Part shown: positions 7,519-32,869 of the stretch, piece after piece
How the letters are laid out: every line of letters begins with the position of its first letter
Numbering within the stretch: the first letter of the stretch is position 1
Source: a virus
DNA length: 38,624 bases
Reading direction: 5' to 3' (one strand)
Virus record (IMG/VR): IMGVR_UViG_3300027513_000007
Notes under the pieces: model-generated
What the model was told of the DNA's origin: nothing
The model's database searches: none
Seen by the model: only the letters and a program-made list of their open reading frames with translations
Made by a program: the position numbers and the translations under genes

Positions 7519-7712
7519 ATACATTAGAGACACTTACCGAAGATTTAGACAAAGAAAAGGATTATTGCATTATAGCTATTAGGTTCTTAGAAGGTTGCCC
7601 CGGATTAGAGCCTGATAAATATCCAGAACAAAGAATTGAACAATATTTTGATAGACTTAATGTGTTGGCTATTGAAAGGGCTCGTCGGTTGAAAAATATC
7701 TTTGGTTTATGA
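7515..7712 (+). CDS. Hypothetical protein, 65 aa
   Basis: ATG at 7515 gives ATGA coupling with the upstream ORF. The track's TTG start at 7503 is less likely. ATGA overlap with the next gene. Confidence 0.55.
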   Translation: MNTLETLTEDLDKEKDYCIIAIRFLEGCPGLEPDKYPEQRIEQYFDRLNVLAIERARRLKNIFGL

Positions 7713-10149: not shown

Positions 10150-10784
10150 TAGCTTCTATCCTCATCCCGACAATGCCTGGAAGATTGGAAAAGTTTACCA
10201 ATCTGTTCAACGAACTACATCGGCAATTGGCCTATATGCAAACTTTTCACCCAACACTGGGACAGATTGAAATAGTAATAGACGATTCAAAACGGTTTTT
10301 AGATGGGGGACTTTCTATAGGAAAGAAACGGGAGGCATTAGTACAGCGTGCAGAAGGTAAATATTGTTGGTTTCTGGATGACGATGAAACGATAGCGCCG
10401 AACTACCTTGAAACATTGGTAAGACTTTGTTGCAGGAATGAAGATGTATGCACATTCCGGGCCATAGGAAAATTTGATAACTATTGGGCGGTCTATGATA
10501 TGTCGTTATTTAACACATGGAATGAACCCTCCACACCTGATAAAACAGTAGTTCGCCAGCCGTGGCATCAGTGTCCGGTTAAGACTGAGTATGCTAAATT
10601 ATATTCATTTCCTGATACGTCCTATGGAGAGGACTGGGAATGGATGGAGCAAGTCTTAAAGCATTGCAAGTCAGAAGCCCACACGGACGCTATTTTACTT
10701 CAATACAATCACGGAAAACATTCAGAAGCAGATAAAATAACTAACCATGTACAGTCAGAATCAGGAGGAGAAACACATTCTTGA
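10146..10784 (+). CDS. Glycosyltransferase family 2-like, 212 aa
   Basis: ILIPTMPGR N-terminus and SIGKKREALVQRAEGKYCWFLDDDE (DxD). Paralogous in pattern to 8973. ATGA-coupled start at 10146. Confidence 0.75.
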   Translation: MIASILIPTMPGRLEKFTNLFNELHRQLAYMQTFHPTLGQIEIVIDDSKRFLDGGLSIGKKREALVQRAEGKYCWFLDDDETIAPNYLETLVRLCCRNEDVCTFRAIGKFDNYWAVYDMSLFNTWNEPSTPDKTVVRQPWHQCPVKTEYAKLYSFPDTSYGEDWEWMEQVLKHCKSEAHTDAILLQYNHGKHSEADKITNHVQSESGGETHS

Positions 10785-11352
10785 ATACTTCGGATATCAT
10801 GTAGGTACCTTCATCGATGTAGGTTGCAATGATTGCGAAACGTTCTCCAATACCAGGGCTTTGGCGCTCAGGGGATGGAAAGGGATACTATTGGATTGCA
10901 GTCCAACGGCTATTGATCGCTGTAAGAAACTATACAACGGACACAAGGGCATTTATATTTACGACTATGCGATTTCATCTCACAATGGCAAAGCGATTCT
11001 ACAGGAATCCGGGCCGTTATGTACTCCTTCCGATATTGGGTTGGTTAGTACTTTCCATCAACACGAGAAGGCCAGATTTGATAGGAAGGTTAAATATGAA
11101 CCTATTGAAGTTAAAACGTTCAAATGGAAGACCGCATTGAATAGGTGGAAGATAAAAGAGTTTGACTGCATTTCTTTAGACGTTGAAGGGGATGAGCTTA
11201 ACATTCTACCAGATATGGACCTATCCAAAACTAGATTAATCTGTATTGAGTGGAACGGGAAACCTGAACTAAAGGAAGCCTATGAGAAATATTTATCAGG
11301 TTTCAGTATAATTTATACGTCAGCCGAAAACATCGTTTATGCCAGAATTTGA
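10747..11352 (+). CDS. FkbM-family methyltransferase, 201 aa
   Basis: N-terminal SQNQEEKHILEYF (the SQxGED-type start of FkbM proteins), FIDVGCNDCETFSNT, and GWKGILLDCSP. Confidence 0.7.
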   Translation: MYSQNQEEKHILEYFGYHVGTFIDVGCNDCETFSNTRALALRGWKGILLDCSPTAIDRCKKLYNGHKGIYIYDYAISSHNGKAILQESGPLCTPSDIGLVSTFHQHEKARFDRKVKYEPIEVKTFKWKTALNRWKIKEFDCISLDVEGDELNILPDMDLSKTRLICIEWNGKPELKEAYEKYLSGFSIIYTSAENIVYARI

Positions 11353-11917
11353 CATTAGTCTTTATGACGAGGACTTCTTCGAATGGCACGTAACACATGC
11401 TAGAAAGTATTCTATACGCACGATGGACTGGTACATTATTAATTACCATCCTAAAAGCGTTATAGACTTTGGATGTGGGATAGGTAGCTATTTAGAATGC
11501 GCTTACGACTATGATATTAAGATTAAAGGCTATGAGATTTCGTGGGAAGCAGTCAGCCACACCCCAGAACGCATACGGCCATACATTGAATACAGGGACT
11601 GCACCGAGCCAATAAACGCGGGGATATTCGATACGGTTATTTCTTTTGAAACCGCGGAACACATTGAACCGGAAGGGACTAACCAATTCATTTTGAACCT
11701 TGTAAACGCTACCGGTAAAACGTTACTATTCACAGCAGCCCCTTTAGGGCAGGGGGGAACAGGGCACATCAACTGCCGGCCTAAAGAGTTCTGGATAATG
11801 GAGTTAAGTGACCTCCTGATTTACAATGACGTTTTAACCGGGGAGATATCAGAGGCATGGGAGAAACTTGGAGCCCCGTGGTATATCGTTAAAAATCTAA
11901 TGGTGTTCAGCCGATGA
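11339..11917 (+). CDS. Class I SAM-dependent methyltransferase, 192 aa
   Basis: Motif I is VIDFGCGIGSYLE. DTVISFETAEHIEPEG is typical of the Methyltransf_11/23 type. Confidence 0.7.
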   Translation: MPEFDISLYDEDFFEWHVTHARKYSIRTMDWYIINYHPKSVIDFGCGIGSYLECAYDYDIKIKGYEISWEAVSHTPERIRPYIEYRDCTEPINAGIFDTVISFETAEHIEPEGTNQFILNLVNATGKTLLFTAAPLGQGGTGHINCRPKEFWIMELSDLLIYNDVLTGEISEAWEKLGAPWYIVKNLMVFSR

Positions 11918-12543
11918 TAATTGTCAACTTCTCCACAAAAGGCTACGGGATGTTGCAACGCAGACTGCGTCATTCGTTAGCGGGTCACAGAAGTATAATG
12001 TTCAGCAACTATGGGCAGATTGATAGCCCAACACAACAGGAAAGCCCCTATCAGTTTAAGATACATTCCATAGAAAGGGCATTTCTTCAGGATGATATCG
12101 TTTTATGGTGTGATTCATCACTGTTTCTGGTTGGAAACCTACATATCATCGACAATCTTATAAAACAGGATGGCTATTTTATGGAGGAGGCGGGGCATTG
12201 GGTAGGGTCATGGACAAATGAGTTTACAAAGGATTATTTTAAGATGACAGAGGAAGAACTCGCGGTCCCTGGGGGGATATTCATGTTTACCGCTGGGTGC
12301 TTGGGATTGAACAGACAGAATCAGACAGCTATGGAATGGTTCAGACAGTGGAAGGAGGCGGCGCTTGCGGGATGCTTTAAAGGTCATTGGCACGATCACC
12401 GACACGACATGACCTGTGGTTCGATAATAGCCCAACGGCTGGGAATGAAGTACCAACGGGGAGGTAAGTACCTTGCTTATGTGGGGCCAGACTACCCCAA
12501 ACCGGAGCCGGGTGTTGTATTTAAGTTAAAAGGATACTTATGA
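11914..12543 (+). CDS. Possible nucleotide-sugar transferase-like protein, 209 aa
   Basis: The Y-x-F-K...DDIVLWCDSS pattern resembles GT-A nucleotide-diphospho-sugar transferases. ATGA-coupled at both ends. Weak call. Confidence 0.35.
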   Translation: MIIVNFSTKGYGMLQRRLRHSLAGHRSIMFSNYGQIDSPTQQESPYQFKIHSIERAFLQDDIVLWCDSSLFLVGNLHIIDNLIKQDGYFMEEAGHWVGSWTNEFTKDYFKMTEEELAVPGGIFMFTAGCLGLNRQNQTAMEWFRQWKEAALAGCFKGHWHDHRHDMTCGSIIAQRLGMKYQRGGKYLAYVGPDYPKPEPGVVFKLKGYL

Positions 12544-14104: not shown

Positions 14105-15736
14105 GTGGCAGAACTGAAATATCCCGGAGGTATGGACGTAAAGAAAATCACTGAGCCTTTATACAAGATTTATAACTTCGTAGTAAGGGAATTTGCCTAC
14201 ACTCAACAGGTAGAAATGTCCGGTCAATATCTCCCCTTCGGGCCGGATGATATGTTCCCCAATAAATTAGCTGCCTTAGTTCAAGGTTCACCCACCGCGA
14301 CCGCGTGTTTATCTACAATGGTAGACTTTGTGACGGGGGAGGGATTTAACAAAGGCATAGGACTTGAAAATCTTGTTATTAACAATCAAGGCTTAAAGTT
14401 ATTTCGATATCACTCCATACAATCGGATTCATTGGTCCATAACTGGGGTGTTGCTTCCATAGTGAAGTACAACCAGGCGGGGGAGATTACCCAGATATTT
14501 GATATTCCTTTTGCTTACTGCCGACTAGGGAAACCTGATGACAGAGGTATAATTTCTAAGATACTTTACAATCCCTATTTCGGGACGGGGCTTTACAACA
14601 GAGCGCAGACGGTAGAATATGACGTCTACAATCCAACCGCGGCCACCGTTCAGATGGGACTGGATAAGAAATGGAAAGGACAGATAAATTGGCTTGGCAT
14701 TAAAGACCAGAAACATCCGTTTTACCCTATACCTGACTATTATTCTGCTTCCCACTGGATGAATGTAGAGAAGAACGCGGCCGTTTACTTCGATACAAAC
14801 TTAGAGAACGGGTTCCTTCAGTCTATGGTCCTTAAAATGGTGGGCGACCCTAACGACGTTTCCGGCAAGAAGGATGGCAACGATGAGGATATTACCAAAG
14901 GGAAGTTACTGGATGAAATGTTAACCCACGACTTTTCAGGTCCAAAGCGGGCGCATAAGATAATGACCCTGTGGGGAAACAACAAAGAAGAATGGCCCGA
15001 GCTTGCAGCTTTCCCTACAAATGCGAATTCAGATTTATATCGCGTCCAGGATGAACAGGCCACCCGGAAGATAAGCATAGCTACCAAAGTCCCCGCTATT
15101 CTAGCCAATGTAAACGACGCTAATAACTTCGGGGGGGAGCAGATTCGCCCAGCGGTGAAATTAATGCAGCAACGCGCCAAACGGCCACAGGATTTGTTGA
15201 TAGACTATTACTCGGATATGTTGAAACGGTTCATTAATCCTGTCACCGTTCCGATAAAAATAGTCCCTTATAACCCGTTCCCAGAATTAGAGAGCATAGA
15301 TCCGCAAGTGTGGGGCGTAATGACGCTGGAAGAACAACGGAAATGGACACAAGACCACACAGAAATAGAATTAACGCTTACTACCCCTCAAACACCGGCT
15401 GCACCTGTCGAAAACAGGTTTGTGAACCTACATTTTGACTCTTATCCGGCGGGAGCGAAGGCAAATGCTAAACGGGCGGTAGAATGGGAGGAAAAAATGC
15501 AAACTTTCTGTCAACCGAAGAAGGGAAGGATGTTGACAGACCAGATTTTGAACGGAATTCCACTGGGACCGAAGGAAATCAAGCGTTTATCACGGTATTT
15601 AAGTAAAAATACTATACACAAAGACAAACCTTATGGCGAAAGCTGCGAGGCGGTGATGTATGACGCGTGGGGAGGGTCTGAAATGATGGTTTGGGCTAAC
15701 GAAAAAGTAAAAGAGTTAAATGGCAAAGCTGATTAA
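14105..15736 (+). CDS. Portal protein (probable), 543 aa
   Basis: The size, its position before connector-like genes, and an overall resemblance to Bacteroidota-phage portal proteins by eye. GTG start. The C-terminal ~110 aa look like an appended module (ANAKRAVEWEE...WGGSEMMVWA). Confidence 0.55.
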   Translation: MAELKYPGGMDVKKITEPLYKIYNFVVREFAYTQQVEMSGQYLPFGPDDMFPNKLAALVQGSPTATACLSTMVDFVTGEGFNKGIGLENLVINNQGLKLFRYHSIQSDSLVHNWGVASIVKYNQAGEITQIFDIPFAYCRLGKPDDRGIISKILYNPYFGTGLYNRAQTVEYDVYNPTAATVQMGLDKKWKGQINWLGIKDQKHPFYPIPDYYSASHWMNVEKNAAVYFDTNLENGFLQSMVLKMVGDPNDVSGKKDGNDEDITKGKLLDEMLTHDFSGPKRAHKIMTLWGNNKEEWPELAAFPTNANSDLYRVQDEQATRKISIATKVPAILANVNDANNFGGEQIRPAVKLMQQRAKRPQDLLIDYYSDMLKRFINPVTVPIKIVPYNPFPELESIDPQVWGVMTLEEQRKWTQDHTEIELTLTTPQTPAAPVENRFVNLHFDSYPAGAKANAKRAVEWEEKMQTFCQPKKGRMLTDQILNGIPLGPKEIKRLSRYLSKNTIHKDKPYGESCEAVMYDAWGGSEMMVWANEKVKELNGKAD

Positions 15737-17990: not shown

Positions 17991-20609
17991 ATGAATAACG
18001 ATATCATTGAATATAGCATACCATCTTTTAAAGAACTTTCTAAAAAGTGGGAAGCGCCAAGAATCAGGATTAAAAAGCTACTTCCTGATCTGACTATTTA
18101 TCCATCACGATGGACCTATTTAGTCTCAAACGAGAAACGACCGCACACAATTACGTTAGAAGAGTTCAGGAAGAAGAAACTCAAAGCCGGAGATAAAGTT
18201 TATTTTGAGCGTGGACAGATTTACAATTGGGCTGAATACGATGTAATTACAGACGATAACACATTCGGTTCGTTTGGCTCTGGCGCTGATCCTATATTTT
18301 ACGGATCTGATTCATACATCGCAGCAACATGGACATCTGAAACCGGAGGATATTATTCGACCCCGCTTGCTACTGCTCCATTATGGGTTGCAATTAACGG
18401 TGAATGCGCAAGGCAAGGGGAGACGGATTGGATTCCGACAATTACGAATTCAACTTCGAATACTATTGCCGGTGCTCCGGCAACATTGAATGCTTTTAAT
18501 TCTGTGATGTTGTTGGCTAATAATACCAAGCTAAGGATGAAAGAGTTTTTTTTCAGACTTTCTTATGAGCATTTAGTTACGGGATATAACACAGGGACCG
18601 GTTTAATGAATATTGGAGCCGGTGGTGTTGTGGGAGGTGTGCAGGGAATGCCTTTTAAACTATACGGGCAAAAGCAATTTGCAACCTTGGAGGGTGATTG
18701 GTGGTATGATGATCCAAATAATAAACTGTGGATTAAAACGGTAGCAACTCCATCGGGAACAGACATTCGGGTAATAACAGAAAATTATGCTTTTAAAGTT
18801 AACGGGGCAAGTAACGCAACCTTTGAAAATATAGACTTCACACAGTATTATAACACAGCGATCGACGCACCGGATGCGCCAAACATCACAGTTAATAACG
18901 TAGATGTACACGACAACCGTACAAACGCGTTCATGTTCTACGGTAATAATACAACGTTTACGTTATCAAATTTTGCACTTGAGCGAATAGGACTTAATGC
19001 AATTCACATCGGGGCTGTTTCTGGTGGTTCAATAACTGACGGTACAATTGAACATACGGGCAAACAGGATAATATAGGATGGCCTCATGATACCTATTGG
19101 ATTAAAACTGGTGGTGTCCCTATCTGTTGTTTCTGGGATTCCGGGGAGTCTGTAACGCAACCTGATAACGTAGATATTGACTCTGTTGTAATGTCCAATG
19201 CAGGATATATAGGAGTACTTTTTATTGGGGATAACCACAGTGCAACAGAATGTATAGTCCATGACTTTTGTGAAAAGTGGAACGATGGCGGGGGATTCTA
19301 CACAATTCACAGAAACACGTTAGGCACATCAACTAAGAATATAACATTTACGAGATGTCATGCTTATAATGGCATTGGCTCTATAGAGGGCATAACACCT
19401 GATGCGCTACTATTTAGCCATGCAGAAGGTTTTTATATTGACAACGGTAGTGAGTTAGTAACTATAGACGAGTGTGTAGCTTATAACAATTCGGAATTTG
19501 GAATACTGTGCAACTGGGATACTCAGAAAACGACTATTACAGACTGTATTGTTTATGGCAATTTAAATTCAGGGGTGTGCTTCAGAGAGGATACAGCTGG
19601 GGGGTCTTCTCCCGTATTTCCAAATAATGATGGCAATATATTCACAGGTAATATTATTACTGCGTCTGATTTAAATTACTGCGTTGAAATCATTAGCTTC
19701 AATGGTAGCACTACTTATAACCCTTTCTCTGATTCTGGTGATTCGGATAATAATAAATATGTAAGACCGTACGGAAGCTCTGTAAATGCTTCACGGTCTA
19801 CCCAGCTAGGAACCCAAACGCCGTATGCCATTGCAGCATGGCGTACCCGTATTGCTGATGACGCGTCTAGTACGGAGCGTTATGAGTCAACCTATAGGTA
19901 TAAAAATCCTCTTAAAACCAGGGCTGAGGAAGTCAGGATAGCAACCAATGAAACATCCTCTACGACAACATTCAACGGTACAGGTTACCACAGCATAACA
20001 GGATCAGCACTTGGAAGCAGTGAAAATATTGCAGCGTTTAGTGCTGTTGTTTATTTGGTTGATACGTGGCCGGTTCCAGATTATTTATTCGATGATTTTG
20101 TAGCTGCAAACGGAACAGCTATCGCAGGACGTACCCCGCCAGTAGGGCCTATCCCCGTAATTGACGCGGGAACACATACGATACAATCTCAAGAAATGGT
20201 GTCCAGTGTTGGTGGGGTTGTTAATTGGGATATAGCTCAATCAAATTTCGATTTTACTGTAAGAACAAGGTGTACAACTACACTAGCGGGGTCTGGTAGT
20301 GGACTTGGAACATATTTCAGGCGTGTGAATGATAACAACAGAATGGTTATCAGTTTTTCGACTACATCGATAACGTTATATGAGTTTAATAACAGTGCAT
20401 CTGTTACAAATACCTGGGTAGTTTCCCGGACGTTTGGTAACAATGACACTTATTTCATTTCGGTTCGTGCAAACGGTACGAGCGTTAAAATATGGGTAAA
20501 TAATATTTTACAGATTGACATCACAACATCTTACACGACAGCTGGGAAGGTCGGTATATTAGGCGCGACAGGTAGGGCTACGGATTATGTTTTAGCAGAA
20601 TCATTATGA
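17991..20609 (+). CDS. Tailspike/fibre with right-handed beta-helix (depolymerase-like) and C-terminal lectin/LamG-like domain, 872 aa
   Basis: The cap motif is KAGDKVYFERGQIY...FGSFGSGADPIFYG. Repeated N-x-[TS]-[IFV] rungs are present (ITVNNVDVHDN, ITFTRCHAYN, ITDCIVYGN). The C-terminal 180 aa are a beta-sandwich-like domain. Confidence 0.7.
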   Translation: MNNDIIEYSIPSFKELSKKWEAPRIRIKKLLPDLTIYPSRWTYLVSNEKRPHTITLEEFRKKKLKAGDKVYFERGQIYNWAEYDVITDDNTFGSFGSGADPIFYGSDSYIAATWTSETGGYYSTPLATAPLWVAINGECARQGETDWIPTITNSTSNTIAGAPATLNAFNSVMLLANNTKLRMKEFFFRLSYEHLVTGYNTGTGLMNIGAGGVVGGVQGMPFKLYGQKQFATLEGDWWYDDPNNKLWIKTVATPSGTDIRVITENYAFKVNGASNATFENIDFTQYYNTAIDAPDAPNITVNNVDVHDNRTNAFMFYGNNTTFTLSNFALERIGLNAIHIGAVSGGSITDGTIEHTGKQDNIGWPHDTYWIKTGGVPICCFWDSGESVTQPDNVDIDSVVMSNAGYIGVLFIGDNHSATECIVHDFCEKWNDGGGFYTIHRNTLGTSTKNITFTRCHAYNGIGSIEGITPDALLFSHAEGFYIDNGSELVTIDECVAYNNSEFGILCNWDTQKTTITDCIVYGNLNSGVCFREDTAGGSSPVFPNNDGNIFTGNIITASDLNYCVEIISFNGSTTYNPFSDSGDSDNNKYVRPYGSSVNASRSTQLGTQTPYAIAAWRTRIADDASSTERYESTYRYKNPLKTRAEEVRIATNETSSTTTFNGTGYHSITGSALGSSENIAAFSAVVYLVDTWPVPDYLFDDFVAANGTAIAGRTPPVGPIPVIDAGTHTIQSQEMVSSVGGVVNWDIAQSNFDFTVRTRCTTTLAGSGSGLGTYFRRVNDNNRMVISFSTTSITLYEFNNSASVTNTWVVSRTFGNNDTYFISVRANGTSVKIWVNNILQIDITTSYTTAGKVGILGATGRATDYVLAESL

Positions 20610-22504
20610 GGTGGATAGTTAAAAAGATAATGAGATTGATTTATAAAATATATAGAGGATGGCATACACCAAAATATTATATAAAAATACTTCTATTTAT
20701 TTTGTTATCGTTGCCATGCATAGCACAGGACTCACTACACATCGAAGAGCTTGGGGTATACGTGAAGACCACTGAAACGCCTCCACCGATCCCAGTGGAT
20801 TCTTTCCTGACCATTGATAATGCAACCAAAGGTATTCAAGGATATCAGCACAACTACACAGGTAACTGGAGTGAAGGAACAAGCGCCAACTGGTATGCTA
20901 CCACGCTTACCTATACCGCCAATGGCGCTGTGACCTTCCGTTTCAATGGAACAAAGATCGAGTGGTACACCGAGAAAGGACCGACTCATGGTAAAGCGGC
21001 GGTTTCAATTGACGGAGGATCAGAAACTATCATCGACCTGTATGCCGCCGCATTTGCTCAGAAAGTGAAAGTGTTTGAGCGTGTTACCACGCAGGATATT
21101 CACACCATAAAATTACGCTCTACCGGCACGAAGAATCCAGCGAGTAGCAACACGTACTTGCTAACGGACTTCTTCAAAATCAAAGACCCGGGGTTCGTCC
21201 CTGATACTGTCCCCCCCATTCCTCCGCCAGTCACCGGAGATATTATTGTATCGCCCGGACAAAGTATCAAGGCTGCTGTAGAATCAGCGACATCCGGCAA
21301 AGTCGTAAGTCTGCTGGAAGGAACCTACAACGAGAATCTGATAAACGTTCCTGTCGGAGTATCAATTGTTGGCGCTGGTAAACTGAAGACTATTATCAAC
21401 TTCACCGGAAGTATGCCACAACAATCCGAAACAGCGATGTTTCAACTTAAAGGAGGATCACTGGTACGTATTATGCCGATGACTATGGGTGTTACTGGCA
21501 TCATGCTACTGGTTCTATTATGGTTGATAGCCAACTACGGACCGTGGACATCGCGGGTCAAATTAATAGTAACAGCAGTTATCGTAGTCATCATAATCGG
21601 AATTATTATCTACATCCTGAGTCCTCAACCTTCACAACACGCCGCAGGGAATCAAACCATATCCGGCTTCACCATCAATGGTAAGTTCCAGTGTAACGGT
21701 GGGATCATGGTAGATGGTCGCGACAACGTCAAGATTCTGGACGTCAAAGTTCAGGAGACAACCTATTTCGGTGTATGGCTGAAGAACACCGCCAACAGTG
21801 AGTTTGCCAATAGTGACCTGTTCAACTCTAGTTGGGCTTCTGTTGGATGGGTCACGGGCGAACTCTGTGTACACAACATCACTAACACTATGATCCACCA
21901 TAACTTCTTTAAGACTACACGCAATGATAAAGGATATGGCATTAAAGGTCTTTGGCCGGATGGAACGGTAACTAATTCAAAGTTCTATAATAACAAGTTT
22001 GAGCTAACGCACTTTAGTTTATGGAACAATGGGTCAGCGCCAAACATCGACATCGAATTACACAATACTTTCTATAACGGTATTGAAATCTACGAGAATG
22101 ACTTTTCAGTGATGGGCTTATCATTAGCATCGCATAGACCAACTAAAGGCGGCAGGACCATTGTACGCAACAATCGTTTTGTATGGTGTTCAACCGCTCA
22201 CATTGAACTGGTCTGCTCAAACATAACCATTGGCCCGGGTAACGTGTTCTCAGGCGCGCCGATGCTGACAGCGAATTTTCAGCCTAATGGAAAGTGGACG
22301 GACATTATCGTAACCGGTAACACCTTCACCAGCAACGGCGCTAATCCAAGCTGGGGAGGAACGCATTTAATAGGGGCGAATGGGATGGACATGACCATTA
22401 CTAACAACGTCTACAATAATTTGGGGGGGTATACCTTTGTCAAGCACATGGGAGCGCCTGCGAATAGTGTGGTAGTGGACACAGGAAACACCAAGAACCA
22501 ATGA
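20606..22504 (+). CDS. Signal-peptide protein with a CBM-like domain and a beta-helix interrupted by a two-TM hairpin, 632 aa
   Basis: The N-terminal segment KILLFILLSLPCIAQ looks like a signal peptide. The CBM-like domain carries HGKAAVSIDGGS...TGTKNPASS. The cap is IIVSPGQSIKAAVESATSGKVVSLLEGTY. Beta-helix rungs lie downstream, and a hydrophobic insert occupies 21461-21646. Confidence 0.65.
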   Translation: MRWIVKKIMRLIYKIYRGWHTPKYYIKILLFILLSLPCIAQDSLHIEELGVYVKTTETPPPIPVDSFLTIDNATKGIQGYQHNYTGNWSEGTSANWYATTLTYTANGAVTFRFNGTKIEWYTEKGPTHGKAAVSIDGGSETIIDLYAAAFAQKVKVFERVTTQDIHTIKLRSTGTKNPASSNTYLLTDFFKIKDPGFVPDTVPPIPPPVTGDIIVSPGQSIKAAVESATSGKVVSLLEGTYNENLINVPVGVSIVGAGKLKTIINFTGSMPQQSETAMFQLKGGSLVRIMPMTMGVTGIMLLVLLWLIANYGPWTSRVKLIVTAVIVVIIIGIIIYILSPQPSQHAAGNQTISGFTINGKFQCNGGIMVDGRDNVKILDVKVQETTYFGVWLKNTANSEFANSDLFNSSWASVGWVTGELCVHNITNTMIHHNFFKTTRNDKGYGIKGLWPDGTVTNSKFYNNKFELTHFSLWNNGSAPNIDIELHNTFYNGIEIYENDFSVMGLSLASHRPTKGGRTIVRNNRFVWCSTAHIELVCSNITIGPGNVFSGAPMLTANFQPNGKWTDIIVTGNTFTSNGANPSWGGTHLIGANGMDMTITNNVYNNLGGYTFVKHMGAPANSVVVDTGNTKNQ

Positions 22505-23202
22505 AAACACTTCTATTACTTTTCGGAGTTCTTGTCGGACTGCCAGCTTTGGCTCAGACATACAAGATTGGCGAAATCACCAAATTATGGACGCCAAAGC
22601 ACATTCAGGTAACTGATGGCTTAACATTCAAGTATAAACTTTATAACGGCTTGGATACGGCCTATCGGTATACCATTGGTGCTAATTCTGATACATTCGA
22701 CGTGACAATCACCTTTAAGCAACGATTGCCACCAGCTAAGCCTGACGTTGTTACTATAATCGACGACTACCCAACAGCCCCAGCACAAACTTATCTCCCA
22801 GCCACACGCCTAGCTGATAACGTCTACAGCACAAACGCATGGGCGCACATGAAAGGTCAAACGTGGAACGCGCTTCACTATGAAAACACCGTATCGTTTG
22901 TGGAAGGGATACCGGTAGGTGCTTACGTTGAATTGACTTGCACTTGCTATAAGGTTGAATGGTGGGGGGAAAGACGAAACAATCATGGAATAGTTTCAAT
23001 TACCACAGACGGCGGATCGATAGCGAACGTGGATACATACGGAACTAATTCAGACAACCCTTCAACATTGCTGTGGCAAAGTGCATCAGCACCAGTTAAT
23101 GGTACGCATAAATTCCGAGTAACTTATACAGGAACAAAAAATCCGGCGTCAACTTCATTTAGCATTGTTCACGACAAATGGGTTATTTACACTAAGCAAT
23201 AA
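22501..23202 (+). CDS. Secreted CBM-like protein, paralogous to the domain in 20606, 233 aa
   Basis: Signal peptide MKTLLLLFGVLVGLPALAQ. It shares the KVEWW..HG.VS.DGGS..VD.Y...TGTKNPAS pattern with the preceding gene. Confidence 0.6.
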   Translation: MKTLLLLFGVLVGLPALAQTYKIGEITKLWTPKHIQVTDGLTFKYKLYNGLDTAYRYTIGANSDTFDVTITFKQRLPPAKPDVVTIIDDYPTAPAQTYLPATRLADNVYSTNAWAHMKGQTWNALHYENTVSFVEGIPVGAYVELTCTCYKVEWWGERRNNHGIVSITTDGGSIANVDTYGTNSDNPSTLLWQSASAPVNGTHKFRVTYTGTKNPASTSFSIVHDKWVIYTKQ

Positions 23203-23408
23203 TGAGACCTATAGGATATTACCATATTAAGATCCAACAATGGAAAGATAGAGATACACGCATAGATGACAAATGGTCTATTGGTTATTGGGATGGAAAG
23301 TGTTTTGAAGAGTTCAACGAAATGTACTATGAAAATGAATTAGTTGAGATAGACGAAAGAAGAATAGTAAGAGAGGAAACAATAACCATTTACACTAAGC
23401 TGCTATGA
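23202..23408 (+). CDS. Hypothetical protein, 68 aa, no TM segment
   Basis: TAATG junction with the upstream gene. Confidence 0.5.
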   Translation: MRPIGYYHIKIQQWKDRDTRIDDKWSIGYWDGKCFEEFNEMYYENELVEIDERRIVREETITIYTKLL

Positions 23409-23617
23409 TGGAGTGGAAGAGAGAGGAACGAGCACCAGCATGGAACACATGGCCTTCAGCACACAACGCGGAAGGATGGAAGCAAAGAAAACAAGATGTA
23501 CTAGACTACTACATAAACCTTGTAATCAGATTTAAACGGCGTGAACGTTGGCAACTGTTGAAGGCTGATTTAAGCGCAAAAGAGAAACTACATGAAGTTC
23601 CTGTTAGTCAAAGATAG
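23405..23617 (+). CDS. Hypothetical basic protein, 70 aa, no TM segment
   Basis: ATGA-coupled ORF. Confidence 0.5.
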   Translation: MMEWKREERAPAWNTWPSAHNAEGWKQRKQDVLDYYINLVIRFKRRERWQLLKADLSAKEKLHEVPVSQR

Positions 23618-24152
23618 CGTTGTGTTAACCGAACATATTACCCCGGTAATTGAACGGCTGGACCCTTTTTTTAAGGCGGCCAATTTAACGGCCTACGTGA
23701 CCTCAGGGCTACGCAGACCAGAGGACCAGTTACGTATCATCCGAAATGAATTAAACCGCCGGGGGCTATCTGGAGACTTCCAGCAGGGCTTTGACGACAT
23801 CGGCGACAGGATTCAGTATGAAGGACAGGAAGTATACGCATGGCAGCCGGCGTGGAGTAAGTTACTTTCTGTTGGTTTTGTTGTTAACCCTCCATATCCG
23901 GCTGTCGCTTTAATGGACTATTTCAGACCTGGGAGTCAGGAGAACCGAAAGGGAAAGATGATAGGGGACAGCCCCCATATCAGGGGGACAGCTTTCGATA
24001 TTGGGGGAGGCAAAGACGGGATTACCAATGAAGCCCAGGTAATAGAAAAGGCTATGGGGAAGGTGAAAGGGCTGAAAGGGTATTTGATTGAAAGAAATAA
24101 TAATGCGATCCATGTAGACTGTCAGCCGATTGACATGGAAGACTTCAAATGA
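23592..24152 (+). CDS. Endolysin, zinc peptidase M15 family (VanY / L-Ala-D-Glu peptidase type), 186 aa
   Basis: Motifs TSGLRRPEDQ, SPHIRGTAFDIGG and NNAIHVD give the H-D-H zinc-ligand arrangement of the M15 family. Confidence 0.8.
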   Translation: MKFLLVKDSVVLTEHITPVIERLDPFFKAANLTAYVTSGLRRPEDQLRIIRNELNRRGLSGDFQQGFDDIGDRIQYEGQEVYAWQPAWSKLLSVGFVVNPPYPAVALMDYFRPGSQENRKGKMIGDSPHIRGTAFDIGGGKDGITNEAQVIEKAMGKVKGLKGYLIERNNNAIHVDCQPIDMEDFK

Positions 24153-24385
24153 AAGTGCTTGTTATACTGCTGTTGATGTCCTGTTCAACGATGCGACAAC
24201 GGACGGTGGTGGTCTCAGTATATGATTATCCTATGCAGTTAGATTCAGTGAAGATCCCTGCGGATTCGGTGGTACACTACCGTCAGGAAATACGAAAGCA
24301 GGAGAACAAAAAGAACTTCTGGAAGGGTGCTACCATTACTCTATTCTTGTTCATCCTGCTGGAGATATTTGTTAATACGAACTAA
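24149..24385 (+). CDS. Unimolecular spanin-like protein (N-terminal lipobox plus C-terminal TM helix), 78 aa
   Basis: ATGA overlap with the endolysin stop. The lipobox is LLLMSC and the C-terminal TM helix is GATITLFLFILLEIFV. This is the architecture of T1 gp11-type u-spanins. Confidence 0.6.
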   Translation: MKVLVILLLMSCSTMRQRTVVVSVYDYPMQLDSVKIPADSVVHYRQEIRKQENKKNFWKGATITLFLFILLEIFVNTN

Positions 24386-24642
24386 TTTTCGTCACGTTTG
24401 AATTTATCCTGACCACCGAATTTATAGATCCCCCCGTCTGTCCATTCAAGTTTGGTATCGTAGATTGACTTTTCTACGTTGAATGTAACACCTAACCAGA
24501 AAGCGGAGTTTTCAGTTGTGCCAGACACATAGGCGTGAAGTATTTCTGGTTCGTCTGTTTCGTGAAACTGTACTTCGTGGCTATGAAGAATGCAAGCCTT
24601 TTGTAGCGCATCCTTATCTCTTTTGTCAATAGTTAATTTCAT
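24382..24642 (-). CDS. Hypothetical protein, 86 aa
   Basis: Last gene of the leftward block. ATGA-coupled to the upstream micro-ORF. Confidence 0.6.
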   Translation of the reverse strand: MKLTIDKRDKDALQKACILHSHEVQFHETDEPEILHAYVSGTTENSAFWLGVTFNVEKSIYDTKLEWTDGGIYKFGGQDKFKRDEN

Positions 24643-24734
24643 AGTGATAGGGCTAAAAGGATTAAGATAAAGATAAGAGCGGCCATTGGCATGGCTAATT
24701 TTTCAGAGAGGTTTTGCTGTGGGTTATGTTTCAT
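24639..24734 (-). CDS. Micro-ORF, single TM helix, 31 aa
   Basis: Hand-translated: MKHNPQQNLSEKLAMPMAALIFILILLALSL. Its stop overlaps the downstream ATG as ATGA. Confidence 0.35.
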   Translation of the reverse strand: MKHNPQQNLSEKLAMPMAALIFILILLALSL

Positions 24735-24745
24735 AGTTTAAAAAG

Positions 24746-24937
24746 TTATCTGTGCCAGTAAGCCTGACGGTTATAATTGGTTTTTTTGATTGGTAACTGA
24801 TTGTAGGTAGGGCATCCACCACCCCAGCCTGGAGTAAAGTAGGTGTGTTTCCCTGATGCGGTGTGGCGGTCCTGCTGCCAATAGGCTCCGCTACAGGATG
24901 ACAACAGGACTAAAAGGATAAGGCTAGTCGTTCTCAT
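24746..24937 (-). CDS. Small lipoprotein, 63 aa
   Basis: Start moved to MRTTSLILLVLLSSCSG (lipobox LLSSC). The track's longer start overlaps the upstream gene extensively. Confidence 0.5.
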   Translation of the reverse strand: MRTTSLILLVLLSSCSGAYWQQDRHTASGKHTYFTPGWGGGCPTYNQLPIKKTNYNRQAYWHR

Positions 24938-25142
24938 TGTAGCGGGTGTTAAGTCTGGAAGCCATTTCATCGTAGAACTCAATTTCGTGGCATCTGTTGC
25001 GCCATTCCTCCGAACCAATCTTTACCACTCCGTCGAGGAGAAGTTGCCCCAGAGCGTCCTCAGCGTTTGATTTAAGGCGGTTGTAGTCGCGTTCCTCTTT
25101 TTTGAACTGATGGCCGTACCATCCTTCGAATTGGTTTTTCAT
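24924..25142 (-). CDS. Hypothetical protein, 72 aa
   Basis: ATGA-coupled ORF in the leftward block. Confidence 0.55.
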   Translation of the reverse strand: MKNQFEGWYGHQFKKEERDYNRLKSNAEDALGQLLLDGVVKIGSEEWRNRCHEIEFYDEMASRLNTRYNEND

Positions 25143-25324
25143 ACTATTTCACCGTTTTGTAGTTTGTCTTCGCAATGCCTGTCGAAAGCCGCTTCGTTGT
25201 CGTTGTCTTCAAGTTCGGCTATCTTCTTTCTGAGTTCATCCCAACCGCCGAACCAGTGGGCAGCTTCTTTTATTTCGTGTTCAAATTCGGCGGTAATTTT
25301 TTCAGTGTTTGTTAATGGGCTCAT
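25139..25324 (-). CDS. Hypothetical acidic protein, 61 aa
   Basis: ATGA-coupled ORF in the leftward block. Confidence 0.55.
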   Translation of the reverse strand: MSPLTNTEKITAEFEHEIKEAAHWFGGWDELRKKIAELEDNDNEAAFDRHCEDKLQNGEIV

Positions 25325-25464
25325 GACTGTAGTGTTTGAAGTGTTGCGGCAATAGCTGCCATTTCGATAAACCGTTTGGTGGACTGACCTTTGATTTCGG
25401 CTGCTTTTATAAGCTGTTTGATTTCGGATGGCGTGAACTCCACGCGCTTACTTTTCTTTGCCAT
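25321..25464 (-). CDS. Small ribbon-helix-helix-like protein, 47 aa
   Basis: The start at MAKKSKRVEFTPSEIKQLIKAAEIKGQSTKRFIEMAAI follows the usual RHH pattern of a basic beta-strand followed by two helices. The track's longer start overlaps the upstream gene. Confidence 0.45.
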   Translation of the reverse strand: MAKKSKRVEFTPSEIKQLIKAAEIKGQSTKRFIEMAAIAATLQTLQS

Positions 25465-25468
25465 TGGA

Positions 25469-25702
25469 TTAACCTTTGATAACTGGTACGCCATCAATAC
25501 GGGGCAGACAAGCAATAATATTTTCCTGGTGTTCACCCTTTACATAGCAGGCTCCAAAGCGTCTAAATGGGTGTGCTAGTGGGTTCTCTTTTACATAGTA
25601 AACGCCACCAGTAAGACGGCCTGAGATAAAGTCCGGGTCAATGGATTGAAAACGTTTCATTTTTTCAATCGCTGCGCTTGGTGTTTTTGCTTCGTGGTTC
25701 AT
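25469..25702 (-). CDS. Hypothetical protein, 77 aa
   Basis: First gene of the leftward sub-block. The MNHEAKTPS start is preferred over the upstream MYRPRIF extension. Confidence 0.5.
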   Translation of the reverse strand: MNHEAKTPSAAIEKMKRFQSIDPDFISGRLTGGVYYVKENPLAHPFRRFGACYVKGEHQENIIACLPRIDGVPVIKG

Positions 25703-25861
25703 ATCTTGTTGTAATTGATATGTAAATATACGTGGTCTGTACATATTATGTACATAAATGTAAGAAAAGAATAGAAAGGTTTGAAATTAGCCTGAATTTG
25801 CCTATTGTATTTTAAAGCCTATGTAAGGTTTAGCTAAAAAAGAAGGTTTTTTGATAGTCAT

Positions 25862-25869
25862 TAAATTTG
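25862..25869 (+). promoter_or_regulatory. Candidate Bacteroidota -7 promoter box TAAATTTG
   Basis: Exact TAnnTTTG match 14 nt upstream of ATG 25884, in a 139-bp divergent AT-rich intergenic region. Confidence 0.35.
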
Positions 25870-25883
25870 CCTAACTTCATTGC

Positions 25884-26069
25884 ATGAGCCTACTTGTAAT
25901 CATCCTGGTTATCGTCTTCGCAGGCCTGATTCTGTGGCTGGTGGAGAAATATATTCCAATGGACCCCGGACTTAAAACACTGTTACGGGTGGTGGTGATA
26001 GCTATTGTCATCTGGATATTACTTCGTGAATTAGGAGTGCTGCACTATCTTTCAACTGTTAAGATTTAG
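25884..26069 (+). CDS. Small two-TM membrane protein, 61 aa
   Basis: Two hydrophobic helices, LLVIILVIVFAGLILWLV and LLRVVVIAIVIWILL, separated by EKYIPMDPGLK. It is the only rightward gene inside the leftward early region. Confidence 0.6.
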   Translation: MSLLVIILVIVFAGLILWLVEKYIPMDPGLKTLLRVVVIAIVIWILLRELGVLHYLSTVKI

Positions 26070-26071
26070 TT

Positions 26072-26317
26072 TCATTTGGCTTCGTGTTTGGAGAGACAAA
26101 AATGAATTCTTTCTTGTGTTATCGGTAGAAGGAATAACTCTTTTTCTAATTGTTTTAGCATTGAAACGAGTTCCGCTTTGTCGGCCTGAAGTTCATCTAT
26201 CCATTTCTTCAAATGTAAATCGCTTTGCTTCAGTCGCTCATTCTCTGTCTTGAGCGCAGCGAGTTCATCCAATAGCTTTTGATTGATTTCGATATTAACG
26301 TTTTCTACTGTAGCCAT
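26072..26317 (-). CDS. Coiled-coil protein, 81 aa
   Basis: Heptad-rich sequence (LLDELAALKTENERLKQSDLHLKKWIDELQADKAELVSMLKQLEKE). Confidence 0.55.
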   Translation of the reverse strand: MATVENVNIEINQKLLDELAALKTENERLKQSDLHLKKWIDELQADKAELVSMLKQLEKELFLLPITQERIHFCLSKHEAK

Positions 26318-26325
26318 ATCTCTGT

Positions 26326-26535
26326 TTAGTTAAAGACCTTAATATATTTTGGTGCAAGTGAATATGTATGTTTGCCATGACGTACAATAGCCCGTCCGCC
26401 TTTGGTTATTCTTTCCAGAAACAATGGATACTCGTTTGCATCGTCATATAGAAATTTTCTCAGATCCCAGTTTATGGCAATGTCGCCACTGTTTAAAATC
26501 CTTACACGTTTGCCGATGTCATCTATTGAAATCAT
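26326..26535 (-). CDS. Hypothetical protein, 69 aa
   Basis: ORF in the leftward operon, tightly spaced with its neighbours. Confidence 0.55.
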   Translation of the reverse strand: MISIDDIGKRVRILNSGDIAINWDLRKFLYDDANEYPLFLERITKGGRAIVRHGKHTYSLAPKYIKVFN

Positions 26536-32515: not shown

Positions 32516-32869
32516 ATGGCAGAAGGAAACGAAGAATACGTGAATGGACGCGCCAGTCATCAGTTTCAACCTGGCAACACCGCAGCCAAAGGACGTGGCC
32601 AAAACAAGGTTTCAACGAAGGTTAAAGAATCAATTGTTAACTTCTTAGAGGCCAATGTGGACAAGATACAAGCGGATTTTGATACTCTTAAAGCCAAAGA
32701 CCGTTTACAGTTCATTGCTGAAATTCTGCCCTATGCAGCCCCTAAATTAGCTTCAATACAACACGAAGGAGAAGTCCATGCCGGAATCACAATCAGATTT
32801 GATGACTCAAGAGATTACGTATACCCTTCCGAAGATAAAAGTAATACAGGAATCCCGGAAAGCGTTTAA
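32516..32869 (+). CDS. terS: Terminase small subunit (probable), 117 aa
   Basis: The FQPGNTAAKGRG motif near the N-terminus is typical of small-terminase-like proteins, and the gene sits directly before TerL. ATG 32516 is preferred to the TTG at 32510. Confidence 0.55.
   Translation: MAEGNEEYVNGRASHQFQPGNTAAKGRGQNKVSTKVKESIVNFLEANVDKIQADFDTLKAKDRLQFIAEILPYAAPKLASIQHEGEVHAGITIRFDDSRDYVYPSEDKSNTGIPESV

What the first reader, a model, noticed from the sequence alone, without database searches (positions are those of the whole stretch)
21451..21684. In-frame two-TM hairpin inserted into a beta-helix protein, with a second open frame over the same stretch
ORF 20606-22504 reads as signal peptide, then CBM-like domain, then beta-helix cap (…TIINFTGSMPQQSETAMFQLKGGS). 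It is then interrupted at 21461-21646 by about 62 residues that look like two TM helices joined by a short turn. These residues are MPMTMGVTGIMLLVLLWLIANYGPWTSRVKLIVTAVIVVIIIGIIIYILSPQP. The canonical beta-helix resumes afterwards (GNQTISGFTINGKFQCNGGIMVDG…). In related cap regions these two flanks are normally separated by only a few residues. Over exactly this stretch the -1/+2 frame is also stop-free for 77 codons (21451-21681). That frame is bounded by TAA at 21448-21450 and TAA at 21682-21684. There are three possible explanations. It could be a genuine membrane-hairpin insertion that anchors a polysaccharide-active enzyme; this is notable because no holin gene sits next to the endolysin. 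It could be a compensated double frameshift. Or it could be a small inserted element.
Basis: partly seen in the sequence, partly recalled or inferred. Interest (0 to 1): 0.6.

Follow-up and report, generated by a model that had tools for sequence, protein, structure and literature searches.

The report
Membrane hairpin spliced into phage glycanase
An uncultured soil phage, probably of Bacteroidota, makes a secreted sugar-chain-cutting enzyme with two membrane-spanning helices built into one of its loops; the insert is real, conserved and under selection, most likely pins the enzyme to the host's inner membrane, and appears to derive from a widespread small bacterial membrane protein.

Summary
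ORF 20606-22504 (632 aa) carries about 59-62 strongly hydrophobic residues (aa 286-347, nt 21461-21646). They sit where 14+ homologues have only a short 3-residue turn.

The insert is genuine and translated in the main frame:
- The same insertion, at the same site, occurs in 9 other contigs whose proteins are 62-93% identical.
- It shows in-frame indels and dN/dS of 0.08-0.11.
- AlphaFold2 models two 23-residue helices (289-311, 316-338) between neighbouring beta-strands.

The "second open frame" is a by-product of NUN codons. It is interrupted in 7 of 9 relatives, and chance gives it a probability of about 0.1. The double-frameshift and recent mobile-element readings are rejected.

The N-terminal signal peptide follows the Bacteroidota "Q-rule" and the inter-helix loop is basic. 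The hairpin should therefore tether the enzyme to the inner membrane with both flanking domains in the periplasm. Close relatives instead carry a C-terminal TM anchor.

The hairpin resembles the Thivi_2564 small-membrane-protein family. Profile-profile comparison gives probability 92% and P 7e-7, with 0 of 419 layout-preserving shuffles reaching the score. It still scores below that family's curated cut-off. The phage also has a free-standing Thivi_2564 gene at 25884-26069.

A holin role is not supported. This is a new variant of a known kind, of moderate interest. The scan has noted hairpins nested in other soluble proteins on other DNA, but not in this family.

The parts
20606..22504 (+). 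Gene for the 632-aa exported beta-helix protein (P0001). It overlaps the upstream 872-aa beta-helix gene and the downstream 233-aa gene by ATGA.
   Evidence: homologues; AF2
20606..20725 (+). Sec signal peptide (aa 1-40). It has a long basic n-region and hydrophobic core 27-37. The predicted cleavage ..CIA|QD.. leaves an N-terminal Gln (Bacteroidota Q-rule).
   Evidence: Sequence. Every signal-bearing homologue has Gln right after a small residue. Q-rule: PMC5837995, PMC10653852.
20801..21184 (+). CBM-like beta-sandwich domain (aa ~66-193). It is followed by a Pro-rich linker.
   Evidence: AF2 strands 67-193. Weak CE2_N hit. The same module is repeated up to 14 times in giant proteins.
21236..21460 (+). 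N-terminal cap and first strands of the beta-helix (aa 211-285), ending ..FQLKGGS.
21461..21646 (+). The inserted two-helix transmembrane hairpin with its short linkers (aa 286-347; net insertion about aa 286-344).
   Evidence: Absent from 14+ homologues and present in 10 contigs. dN/dS 0.08-0.11. AF2 helices.
21485..21532 (+). TM1 hydrophobic core (aa 294-309; AF2 helix 289-311). It ends in the L-W-L-I motif.
21533..21562 (+). Short basic loop N-Y-G-P-W-T-S-R-V-K (aa 310-319), predicted cytoplasmic.
   Evidence: The loop (counted with the residue on each side of it) carries 2-4 Lys/Arg in every variant, the outer flanks 0-2.
21563..21619 (+). TM2 hydrophobic core (aa 320-338; AF2 helix 316-338), mean hydropathy 3.38.
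21647..22501 (+). Body of the right-handed beta-helix (aa 348-632), starting at the invariant G-N-Q.
   Evidence: Pfam Beta_helix 24.5 bits. Foldseek hits to GH87 glucanases, AlgE epimerases, PL6 lyases and phage tailspikes.
21451..21684 (+). Stop-free +2 frame (77 codons) bounded by TAA on both sides. It is not a gene.
   Evidence: no family hit
25884..26069 (+). Free-standing 61-aa Thivi_2564-family two-TM gene in the same phage. It is the closest known relative of the insert and is conserved in sister phages.
   Evidence: NF041949 48.6 bits against a cut-off of 33. 56 and 47.7 bits in relatives.

Best explanation
The segment is a genuine, translated, selectively maintained insertion. It places a two-helix transmembrane hairpin into the short turn between the N-terminal cap and the first coil of a right-handed beta-helix glycan-active enzyme. 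The enzyme is encoded in the late operon of a tailed phage, probably of Bacteroidota.

Proposed mechanism (inferred):
- The N-terminal Sec signal peptide sends the CBM-like domain and the helix cap across the inner membrane.
- TM1 acts as a stop-transfer sequence, and the short basic loop stays in the cytoplasm.
- TM2 re-initiates translocation, so the rest of the beta-helix also reaches the periplasm.
- After signal-peptide cleavage the enzyme is an N-out/C-out inner-membrane protein. Its catalytic helix sits directly on the periplasmic face of the membrane.

Most likely role (inferred, not shown): the enzyme cuts or modifies nascent envelope polysaccharide late in infection. That would serve receptor destruction, exclusion, or easier release of progeny.

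Origin: the hairpin most likely derives from a Thivi_2564-type small membrane protein. The predicted N-out/C-out topology of that family fits insertion into an exported protein.
For: Shown:
- The insert sits at the identical site in proteins of 62-93% identity from 10 contigs, and is absent from 14+ others.
- dN/dS is 0.08-0.11 at dS of about 1, and indels are in frame.
- AF2 gives two 23-residue helices (block-mean pLDDT 80-89) between adjacent strands.
- Hydropathy is 2.3-3.4 in all variants, with a Lys/Arg-rich loop.
- The hairpin sequence diverges 10-17 times faster in dN than its flanks but stays hydrophobic, as expected of a passive anchor. L012 vs L021: dN 0.88 in the insert, 0.052 after it. 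Window vs L010: 0.575 against 0.05-0.07.
- Every full-length hairpin-bearing member has a Q-rule signal peptide, and the eight signal-less full-length members have no TM.
- Close relatives P0017 and P0020 carry a C-terminal TM plus a basic tail instead. That is an independent anchoring solution.
- The fold matches glycan-active beta-helices.

Origin:
- hhalign of the insert profile against 84 Thivi_2564 sequences from 80 bacterial genomes gives probability 92%, P 6.6e-7 and 43 gapless columns.
- The null from shuffling columns within TM1, loop and TM2 has mean 13.7, sd 3.0 and maximum 27.2, against an observed 36.6 (0 of 419).
- The reciprocal HMM search ranks Thivi proteins as the best non-self hits.

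Precedents:
- VexL, a periplasmic beta-helix lyase, degrades capsule during export (PMC6003464).
- Porphyromonas gingivalis phages encode proteins with Q-rule signal peptides (PMC10367356).
Against: - No TM or signal-peptide predictor (DeepTMHMM, SignalP) was available. Topology rests on hydropathy, the positive-inside rule and AF2.
- No expression, localisation or activity data exist, and the host and substrate are unknown.
- The charge bias of the loop is modest (+2 to +4, against 0 to +2 in the flanks).
- The insert scores only 13.5-15.9 bits against the curated Thivi_2564 model (cut-off 33). Two insert variants (L010, L021 types) show little or no similarity. Convergence of short hydrophobic hairpins is therefore not excluded.
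- The gene lies in the tail-fibre module, so a virion role cannot be ruled out from sequence.
Confidence: 0.7

Rival explanations
1. Holin-like or lysis-timing module. The embedded hairpin forms or nucleates membrane lesions, or releases the enzyme on depolarisation. It would supply the holin function missing next to the endolysin.
For: - No holin lies beside the putative M15 endolysin and u-spanin at 23592-24385 (weak M15 hits).
- The gene is in the same late operon, 1.1 kb upstream.
- In relatives, a separate family of ~65-aa 2-TM ORFs with basic C-termini lies directly beside the beta-helix gene. In L021 and L010 it also lies beside a spanin-like ORF.
- One such ORF hits a holin PHROG weakly, E 0.005.
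- P0013 has one of these ORFs fused to its C-terminus, E 7e-11.
Against: - Insert-bearing relatives L006, L010, L012 and L021 keep the separate small 2-TM gene, so the insert does not replace it.
- The window has a free 2-TM gene at 25884-26069.
- The insert resembles Thivi_2564, a family found mostly in bacterial chromosomes across phyla. It does not resemble the holin-like small-ORF family (hhalign probability 0.5%).
- The hairpin has no free charged tail, and TM2 is far too hydrophobic for a SAR-type release.
- The sequence drifts very fast.
Confidence: 0.12
2. Virion-associated device. The protein is a tail spike or fibre assembled on the particle. The hydrophobic hairpin would be an oligomerisation element or a membrane-penetrating element used at infection, not an inner-membrane anchor.
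For: - The gene is translationally coupled (ATGA) to the 872-aa beta-helix tailspike-like gene in the structural module.
- Signal-less homologues, probably virion proteins, share an almost identical beta-helix body. P0005 is 90% identical.
- The fold resembles tailspikes.
Against: - A cleavable Q-rule signal peptide is present in every full-length hairpin-bearing member. This is hard to reconcile with cytoplasmic virion assembly.
- Helices of hydropathy 2.5-3.4 would aggregate in the cytoplasm.
- The N-terminus has no virion-adaptor domain. It is a CBM-like module instead.
Confidence: 0.1
3. Artefact or junk. The segment would be a compensated pair of frameshift errors, or a recently inserted selfish element that happens to stay in frame.
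For: - The +2 frame is open for 77 codons in the window and in L007.
- A weak 12-nt direct repeat (10 of 12 matches) lies around the insert.
Against: - Ten contigs from several metagenomes keep the main frame.
- The +2 frame has stops in 7 of 9 relatives.
- dN/dS is about 0.1 in the main frame.
- The chance that the +2 frame stays open, given this protein, is 0.11.
- The +2 product has no family hit.
- There is no GC or skew anomaly, no convincing terminal repeats and no Rfam family.
- The insert is shared by proteins only 62% identical, so it is old.
Confidence: 0.02

Closest known systems
Thivi_2564 family small membrane proteins (NCBIfam NF041949; Pfam PF28077; PHROG 23151)
   Same: - Two TM helices are joined by a short Pro-containing basic loop.
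- The motif L-W-L-[IV]-x-x-Y-x-P ... [KR]-[IV]-K-x-I-[VL] is shared.
- Profile-profile alignment is gapless over 43 columns (probability 92%).
- The predicted topology is N-out/C-out.
- A bona fide member is encoded in the same phage at 25884-26069.
   Different: - Family members are free-standing proteins of 55-65 aa, mostly in bacterial chromosomes of many phyla. Here the unit is embedded in a 632-aa enzyme.
- The insert scores 15.9 bits against a cut-off of 33.
- The L010- and L021-type inserts have lost the similarity.
- The family's function is unknown, and no paper mentions it.
Periplasmic or secreted bacterial beta-helix glycan enzymes with a tailspike-like fold, e.g. VexL (Vi-antigen lyase, PMC6003464) and WceF (PMC7949094)
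   Same: - A signal peptide precedes a right-handed parallel beta-helix.
- They act on envelope polysaccharide from inside the envelope. VexL degrades capsule in the periplasm during export.
   Different: - Those enzymes are soluble, host-encoded and have no TM segment.
- This one is phage-encoded, carries a CBM-like N-domain and is predicted to be tethered by an internal hairpin.
- No sequence similarity beyond the fold was shown.
Phage tailspike depolymerases (e.g. CBA120 TSP3 5w6f, Sf6 TSP 2vbk, HK620 TSP)
   Same: - The fold is the same (Foldseek E 1e-6 to 1e-4).
- The gene lies in the tail-fibre module, next to another beta-helix gene.
- The beta-helix body is exchanged by recombination with signal-less forms (P0005).
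   Different: - Tailspikes have N-terminal particle-binding domains, no signal peptide and no TM helices, and are assembled in the cytoplasm.
GH87 alpha-1,3-glucanase catalytic units (6k0q, 7c7d), the best structural matches
   Same: - A CBM-like beta-sandwich is followed by a right-handed beta-helix (Foldseek E 5e-10).
   Different: - Sequence identity is only 12-13% and TM-scores are 0.3-0.46.
- Catalytic residues were not compared, and these proteins have no membrane segment.
Class II holins / pinholins
   Same: - Both have two TM helices of similar length, and both are encoded by a phage late operon.
   Different: - Holins are small free proteins, typically N-in/C-in with a charged cytoplasmic tail, and lie in the lysis cassette.
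- This hairpin is embedded and predicted N-out/C-out. It has no tail and lies three genes away from the endolysin.

Membership tests
Right-handed parallel beta-helix glycan-active enzymes (Pfam Beta_helix PF13229 / pectate-lyase fold) | Sequence match to PF13229 above the gathering score | tested here: inconclusive
   24.5 bits against a cut-off of 25.9, E 2.3e-5, aa 348-499. Many homologues carry a precomputed PF13229 hit.
Right-handed parallel beta-helix glycan-active enzymes (Pfam Beta_helix PF13229 / pectate-lyase fold) | Predicted fold is a right-handed beta-helix similar to solved members | tested here: met
   The AF2 model has pLDDT above 90 over aa 348-632. Foldseek PDB hits reach E 5e-10 for GH87, with AlgE4/6, PL6 lyases and tailspikes also matched.
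Right-handed parallel beta-helix glycan-active enzymes (Pfam Beta_helix PF13229 / pectate-lyase fold) | Catalytic acidic or basic residues and glycan-cleaving activity | not tested
   No close characterised relative exists. Invariant columns are listed but were not mapped to an active site.
Thivi_2564 family membrane protein (NF041949) | Score at or above the curated cut-off (33 bits) | tested here: not met
   The insert scores 15.9 bits, E 0.01. Relatives score 13.5-15.6 bits. The free gene at 25884-26069 scores 48.6 bits.
Thivi_2564 family membrane protein (NF041949) | Two TM helices with the conserved LWLxNxYIPMD...IKxILN core, detectable by profile comparison beyond compositional layout | tested here: met
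   hhalign gives probability 92%, P 6.6e-7 and score 36.6 over 43 gapless columns. The segment-preserving shuffle null has a maximum of 27.2 (0 of 419). The motif is only partly kept (LWLIANYGPW..RVKLIV).
Thivi_2564 family membrane protein (NF041949) | Free-standing protein of about 50-65 aa | tested here: not met
   The unit is embedded at aa 286-347 of a 632-aa protein.
Holin (class II / pinholin type) | Small free protein with a charged C-terminal cytoplasmic tail, encoded next to the endolysin | tested here: not met
   The hairpin is embedded and has no tail. The gene ends 1.1 kb before the putative endolysin, with three genes between them.
Holin (class II / pinholin type) | Triggered lethal permeabilisation of the membrane | not testable with these tools
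   This needs expression assays.
Sec/SPI substrates of Bacteroidota (Q-rule signal peptides) | n-h-c signal peptide with Gln at +1 after a small residue | tested here: met
   The window has ..LPCIA|QD. All signal-bearing homologues and the 233-aa neighbour show A/G/C followed by Q. The rule is described in PMC5837995. Actual cleavage is not testable here.
SAR (signal-arrest-release) anchored lysis enzymes | N-terminal, weakly hydrophobic Gly/Ala/Ser-rich TM domain able to leave the bilayer | tested here: not met
   The hairpin is internal, and TM2 has mean hydropathy 3.38, built almost wholly of Ile/Val/Leu.
Compensated double frameshift / overlapping gene in the +2 frame | The alternative frame is conserved and open in relatives, and the main frame is not under selection | tested here: not met
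   The +2 frame has stops in 7 of 9 relatives. Main-frame dN/dS is 0.08-0.11. Chance openness is 0.11.

The most novel reading that the evidence does not exclude
This clade of Bacteroidota phages has a previously undescribed late function: a Sec-exported, inner-membrane-tethered tailspike-type glycanase. It would attack the host's envelope polysaccharide from the periplasmic side, either destroying the phage's own receptor or opening the glycan layer for release. The tether has evolved repeatedly: by in-frame capture of a Thivi_2564 mini-protein into a loop of the beta-helix, by a C-terminal TM anchor, and possibly by fusion with a neighbouring holin-like 2-TM gene. This would be a natural case of a free small membrane protein being domesticated as an internal anchor inside a folded soluble domain. 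It would also give the first functional handle on the uncharacterised Thivi_2564 family.
Probability: 0.25. Interest if true: 0.7.

Novelty: new variant of a known kind. Interest (0 to 1): 0.5.

Why it matters
Phage depolymerases are usually viewed as virion spikes or soluble enzymes. A signal-peptide-bearing form tethered in the inner membrane implies that some phages attack or remodel host surface glycans from inside the envelope during late infection. That bears on receptor destruction, superinfection exclusion and release.

The case also shows how a beta-helix can tolerate a whole transmembrane hairpin in one turn. It shows how a free mini-protein may be captured as a domain. This is useful both for annotation, since such inserts look like frameshifts or chimeras, and for engineering membrane-tethered enzymes.

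It also links the widespread, unstudied Thivi_2564 family to a testable role as an N-out/C-out hairpin.

Tried and rejected
- Double frameshift: rejected on comparative grounds.
- Functional +2 ORF: no family hit, broken in relatives.
- Internal translation start driven by the AGGAGG at 21451-21456: the Gly codons vary freely among relatives (GGG GGG, GGT GGA, GGC GGA, GGT GGT), and L010 has no Met at the start of the insert.
- Recent mobile element or RNA element: no GC or skew change, only weak chance-level repeats, no Rfam family in 20500-26500.
- Relation of the insert to the second small 2-TM ORF family next to the beta-helix genes of relatives: hhalign probability 0.5%.
- Search for free-standing proteins similar to the insert in the 5.8-billion-protein set: no candidate shared enough words.
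- ESM Atlas look-up: only generic TM hairpins of transporters, kinases and the like by structure, nothing by features.
- PHROGs: no informative hit for the insert. The Thivi gene falls in PHROG 23151, of unknown function.
- Literature: no paper mentions Thivi_2564. Two searches for membrane-anchored or TM-bearing tailspikes or depolymerases found no precedent.
- Cap-region tree: too short to resolve whether the insertion had a single origin.
Read pile-ups and expression could therefore not be checked.
Full report
OBSERVATION
ORF 20606-22504 (+) encodes 632 aa. Its parts, in order:
- a signal-like N-terminus
- a beta-sandwich domain
- a Pro-rich linker
- the start of a beta-helix ending ..FQLKGGS (aa 285)
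- a very hydrophobic stretch (aa 286-347, nt 21461-21646)
- the invariant G-N-Q-T-I-S-G that begins the helix body

Kyte-Doolittle 19-residue windows peak at about 2.0 and 3.38. The +2 frame 21451-21681 is open for 77 codons between two TAA codons. There is no GC or skew anomaly across the stretch.

IS IT REAL?
A word-indexed search of 5.8 billion proteins gave 40 homologues. In the alignment, P0003, P0004, P0006, P0007, P0008 and P0009 are 62-92% identical to the window protein. They carry a hydrophobic insertion at exactly the same site. Fourteen others join the flanks by K-S-G-S-x-x-x-G-N-Q.

DNA loci were fetched from IMG/VR and JGI metagenomes. They yielded ten insert-bearing genes and six insert-less ones.

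Codon-level comparison gave these results:
- In the insert, dN/dS is 0.078-0.111 at dS of about 1 (window vs L006, L007, L008). The flanks give 0.03-0.06.
- Length differences are in frame.
- The +2 frame has stops in L006, L008, L009, L010, L011, L012 and L021.

Why the +2 frame is open in the window:
- 52% of insert codons have T at position 2, against 30% gene-wide.
- That base becomes the third base in the +2 frame, where a stop needs A or G.
- Re-drawing synonymous codons for the same protein leaves the frame open in 10.6% of trials.
- By contrast, only 1 of 555 windows of that length is open in the +2 frame of the real gene.

The double-frameshift reading and the overlapping-gene reading are therefore rejected.

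STRUCTURE
AlphaFold2 with a 44-sequence alignment (mean pLDDT 84) places two 23-residue helices (289-311 and 316-338, block-mean pLDDT 80-89). They lie between strand 279-282 and strand 346-358. These two strands are sequence neighbours in insert-less relatives. The rest is a CBM-like sandwich (aa ~66-193) and a confident beta-helix.

Foldseek against the PDB returns generic glycan-active beta-helices:
- GH87 alpha-1,3-glucanases (E 5e-10)
- AlgE mannuronan epimerases
- PL6 lyases
- CBA120, Sf6 and HK620 tailspikes

The ESM Atlas structural neighbours of aa 290-342 are TM hairpins of transporters, kinases and small membrane proteins.

CONTEXT
The window is a tailed phage. It has a tape measure gene (2414-4270), a head protease, a portal (14105-15736) and a large terminase (32778-33971). 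The gene order in this region is:
- an 872-aa signal-less beta-helix gene, with which our gene is ATGA-coupled
- our gene
- a 233-aa signal-bearing CBM-like paralogue
- two small genes
- a putative M15 endolysin (only weak Pfam hits, E 0.018 and 0.071)
- a u-spanin-like gene

The named database relatives come from Chryseolinea and Cyclobacteriaceae MAGs.

Every signal-bearing family member, and the 233-aa neighbour, has Gln immediately after a small residue at the end of the hydrophobic core. This is the Bacteroidota 'Q-rule' for signal peptidase I substrates (PMC5837995, PMC10653852). Q-rule signal peptides have been noted on P. gingivalis phage proteins (PMC10367356).

TOPOLOGY AND LIKELY MECHANISM (inferred)
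With a cleavable signal peptide, an even number of TM helices keeps both flanking domains on the same (periplasmic) side. Counting the basic residue that directly abuts the loop on either side, the inter-helix loop carries 2-4 Lys/Arg in all ten variants. The outer flanks carry 0-2. This fits a cytoplasmic loop.

The hairpin's sequence is poorly conserved but always hydrophobic:
- L012 vs L021: insert dN 0.88, against 0.052 in the following helix body.
- Window vs L010: 0.575, against 0.05-0.07.

This is the pattern of a passive membrane anchor, or of repeated replacement by recombination.

Membrane tethering recurs in the family:
- P0017 and P0020 end in a single TM followed by a Lys/Arg tail, a type I anchor.
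- P0013 ends in a two-TM unit.
- None of the eight signal-less full-length members has any TM.

In the tree of the post-insert helix body, the insert-bearers form one clade (SH-aLRT 86). The exception is P0005, an insert-less and signal-less protein whose helix body is about 90% identical to the window's. It indicates recombination with a breakpoint some 25 residues after the hairpin.

I therefore read the protein as an N-out/C-out inner-membrane-tethered periplasmic glycanase made late in infection. Its biological purpose is inference only. Candidates are cutting nascent envelope glycan at the periplasmic face, destroying the phage's receptor, or easing release. The closest functional analogy is the periplasmic beta-helix lyase VexL, which degrades capsule during export (PMC6003464).

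ORIGIN OF THE HAIRPIN
The window has a free 61-aa two-TM gene at 25884-26069. It is a clear Thivi_2564-family member (NF041949, 48.6 bits, cut-off 33). It is conserved in the sister phages (56 and 47.7 bits).

Scores of the insert against Thivi_2564:
- Against the curated model, only 13.5-15.9 bits.
- hhalign against five Thivi sequences: probability 75%, score 28.5. None of 503 shuffles of columns within TM1, loop and TM2 reached it.
- hhalign against 84 Thivi sequences from 80 bacterial genomes of many phyla: probability 92%, P 6.6e-7, score 36.6, 43 gapless columns. The null has mean 13.7, sd 3.0 and maximum 27.2 (0 of 419).

How the signal varies among insert types:
- It persists in the distant L012/P0006/P0004 subgroup (75%).
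- It is weak in the L021 type (15%).
- It is absent in the L010 type (1%).

The reciprocal search with an insert HMM over all 5,400 ORFs and proteins held ranks Thivi proteins first among non-self hits.

The shared non-hydrophobic positions are W, Y and P in the loop, plus [KR]-[IV]-K. I put ancient in-frame capture of, or common descent with, a Thivi_2564-like unit at about 70%. By the curated threshold the insert is not a family member.

Free Thivi proteins have an uncharged N-terminus and a Lys-rich loop, so they are predicted N-out/C-out. That is exactly the topology an insertion into an exported protein needs (inference).

THE HOLIN QUESTION
Relatives carry a different ~65-aa two-TM ORF family with basic C-termini, directly beside the beta-helix gene:
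- Upstream of the gene in L006, L014/15, L017, L018 and L019.
- Downstream of the gene in L010, L012/13 and L021. In L010 and L021 it is followed by a spanin-like ORF.
- One member hits a holin PHROG weakly (E 0.005).
- P0013's C-terminal extension is a fused copy (E 7e-11). This is a single sequence, so loss of a stop codon or an assembly error is possible.

These ORFs, and the Thivi gene in the window, are better holin candidates than the insert. They coexist with the insert in L006, L010, L012 and L021. The insert is unrelated to them (probability 0.5%). I give the holin reading 12%.

LIMITS
- No TM or signal predictor, raw reads, expression data or host were available.
- Literature searches found no description of Thivi_2564 and none of a TM-bearing tailspike-type enzyme. 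The library is incomplete.
- The scan's earlier notes record TM hairpins nested in other soluble proteins on other DNA (LivG ATPase, a baseplate wedge protein, a helicase). The general phenomenon therefore recurs, but this family was not among them.

VERDICT
The feature is real, selected and explained in outline. It is a new architectural variant of a known enzyme kind, with a plausible and testable origin from a small membrane protein. Interest 0.5.

Noticed in passing
window 25884-26069 (+): An unannotated-looking 61-aa two-TM gene is a clear Thivi_2564-family member (48.6 bits, cut-off 33). It lies on the + strand between minus-strand ORFs and is conserved in sister phages. It is the only free two-TM protein in the window, and so a candidate for the missing holin.
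   Followed up: partly
L001:9527-9724, L010:9832-10026, L021:3543-3746, L018:4750-4941, L019:7669-7860 (all +): A second family of ~65-aa two-TM ORFs (ME-x-L..LLIY..VF..YYL ... VK.I.L..FLIL..SLFFG, with a basic C-terminus) sits directly next to the beta-helix gene in many related phages, whether or not that gene has the insert. In L021 and L010 a lipobox+TM (spanin-like) ORF follows it. The topology is holin-like, and there is one weak holin PHROG hit. The family is absent from the window.
   Followed up: partly
protein P0013, aa 562-617: A relative has the small two-TM ORF fused in frame to the C-terminus of the beta-helix protein, 13 codons after the usual end (E 7e-11). This is a single sequence, so it may be a true fusion, a lost stop codon or an assembly error.
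   Followed up: partly
protein P0005 vs window 21720-22501: An insert-less, signal-less homologue shares a beta-helix body about 90% identical to the window's, but has a different N-terminal half. The recombination breakpoint lies about 25 residues downstream of the hairpin, so exported and non-exported forms exchange the same catalytic body.
   Followed up: partly
window 20850-21184 (aa ~83-192): The CBM-like N-terminal module matches repeated modules in very large proteins, up to 14 matched stretches in a 5,149-aa protein (P0050). The exhaustive search gave 4,399 hits at E<=1e-3.
   Followed up: no
window 23592-24152 (+): The gene earlier called an M15 endolysin has only sub-threshold support: Peptidase_M15_3 at E 0.018 and VanY at E 0.071. 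It has no PHROG hit and no PDB sequence match.
   Followed up: partly
L010:8760-8960 and L021:2480-2690 (insert regions) vs their flanks: The hairpin diverges 10-17 times faster in dN than the adjoining beta-helix (e.g. L012 vs L021: 33% against 93% identity). This suggests either very relaxed sequence constraint or cassette-like replacement of the hairpin.
   Followed up: partly
window 7709-12543 (+): There is a run of eight consecutive ORFs of about 190-235 aa between the head genes and the portal. An earlier follow-up read this stretch as a glycosyl/methyl-transferase island. It was not examined here.
   Followed up: no
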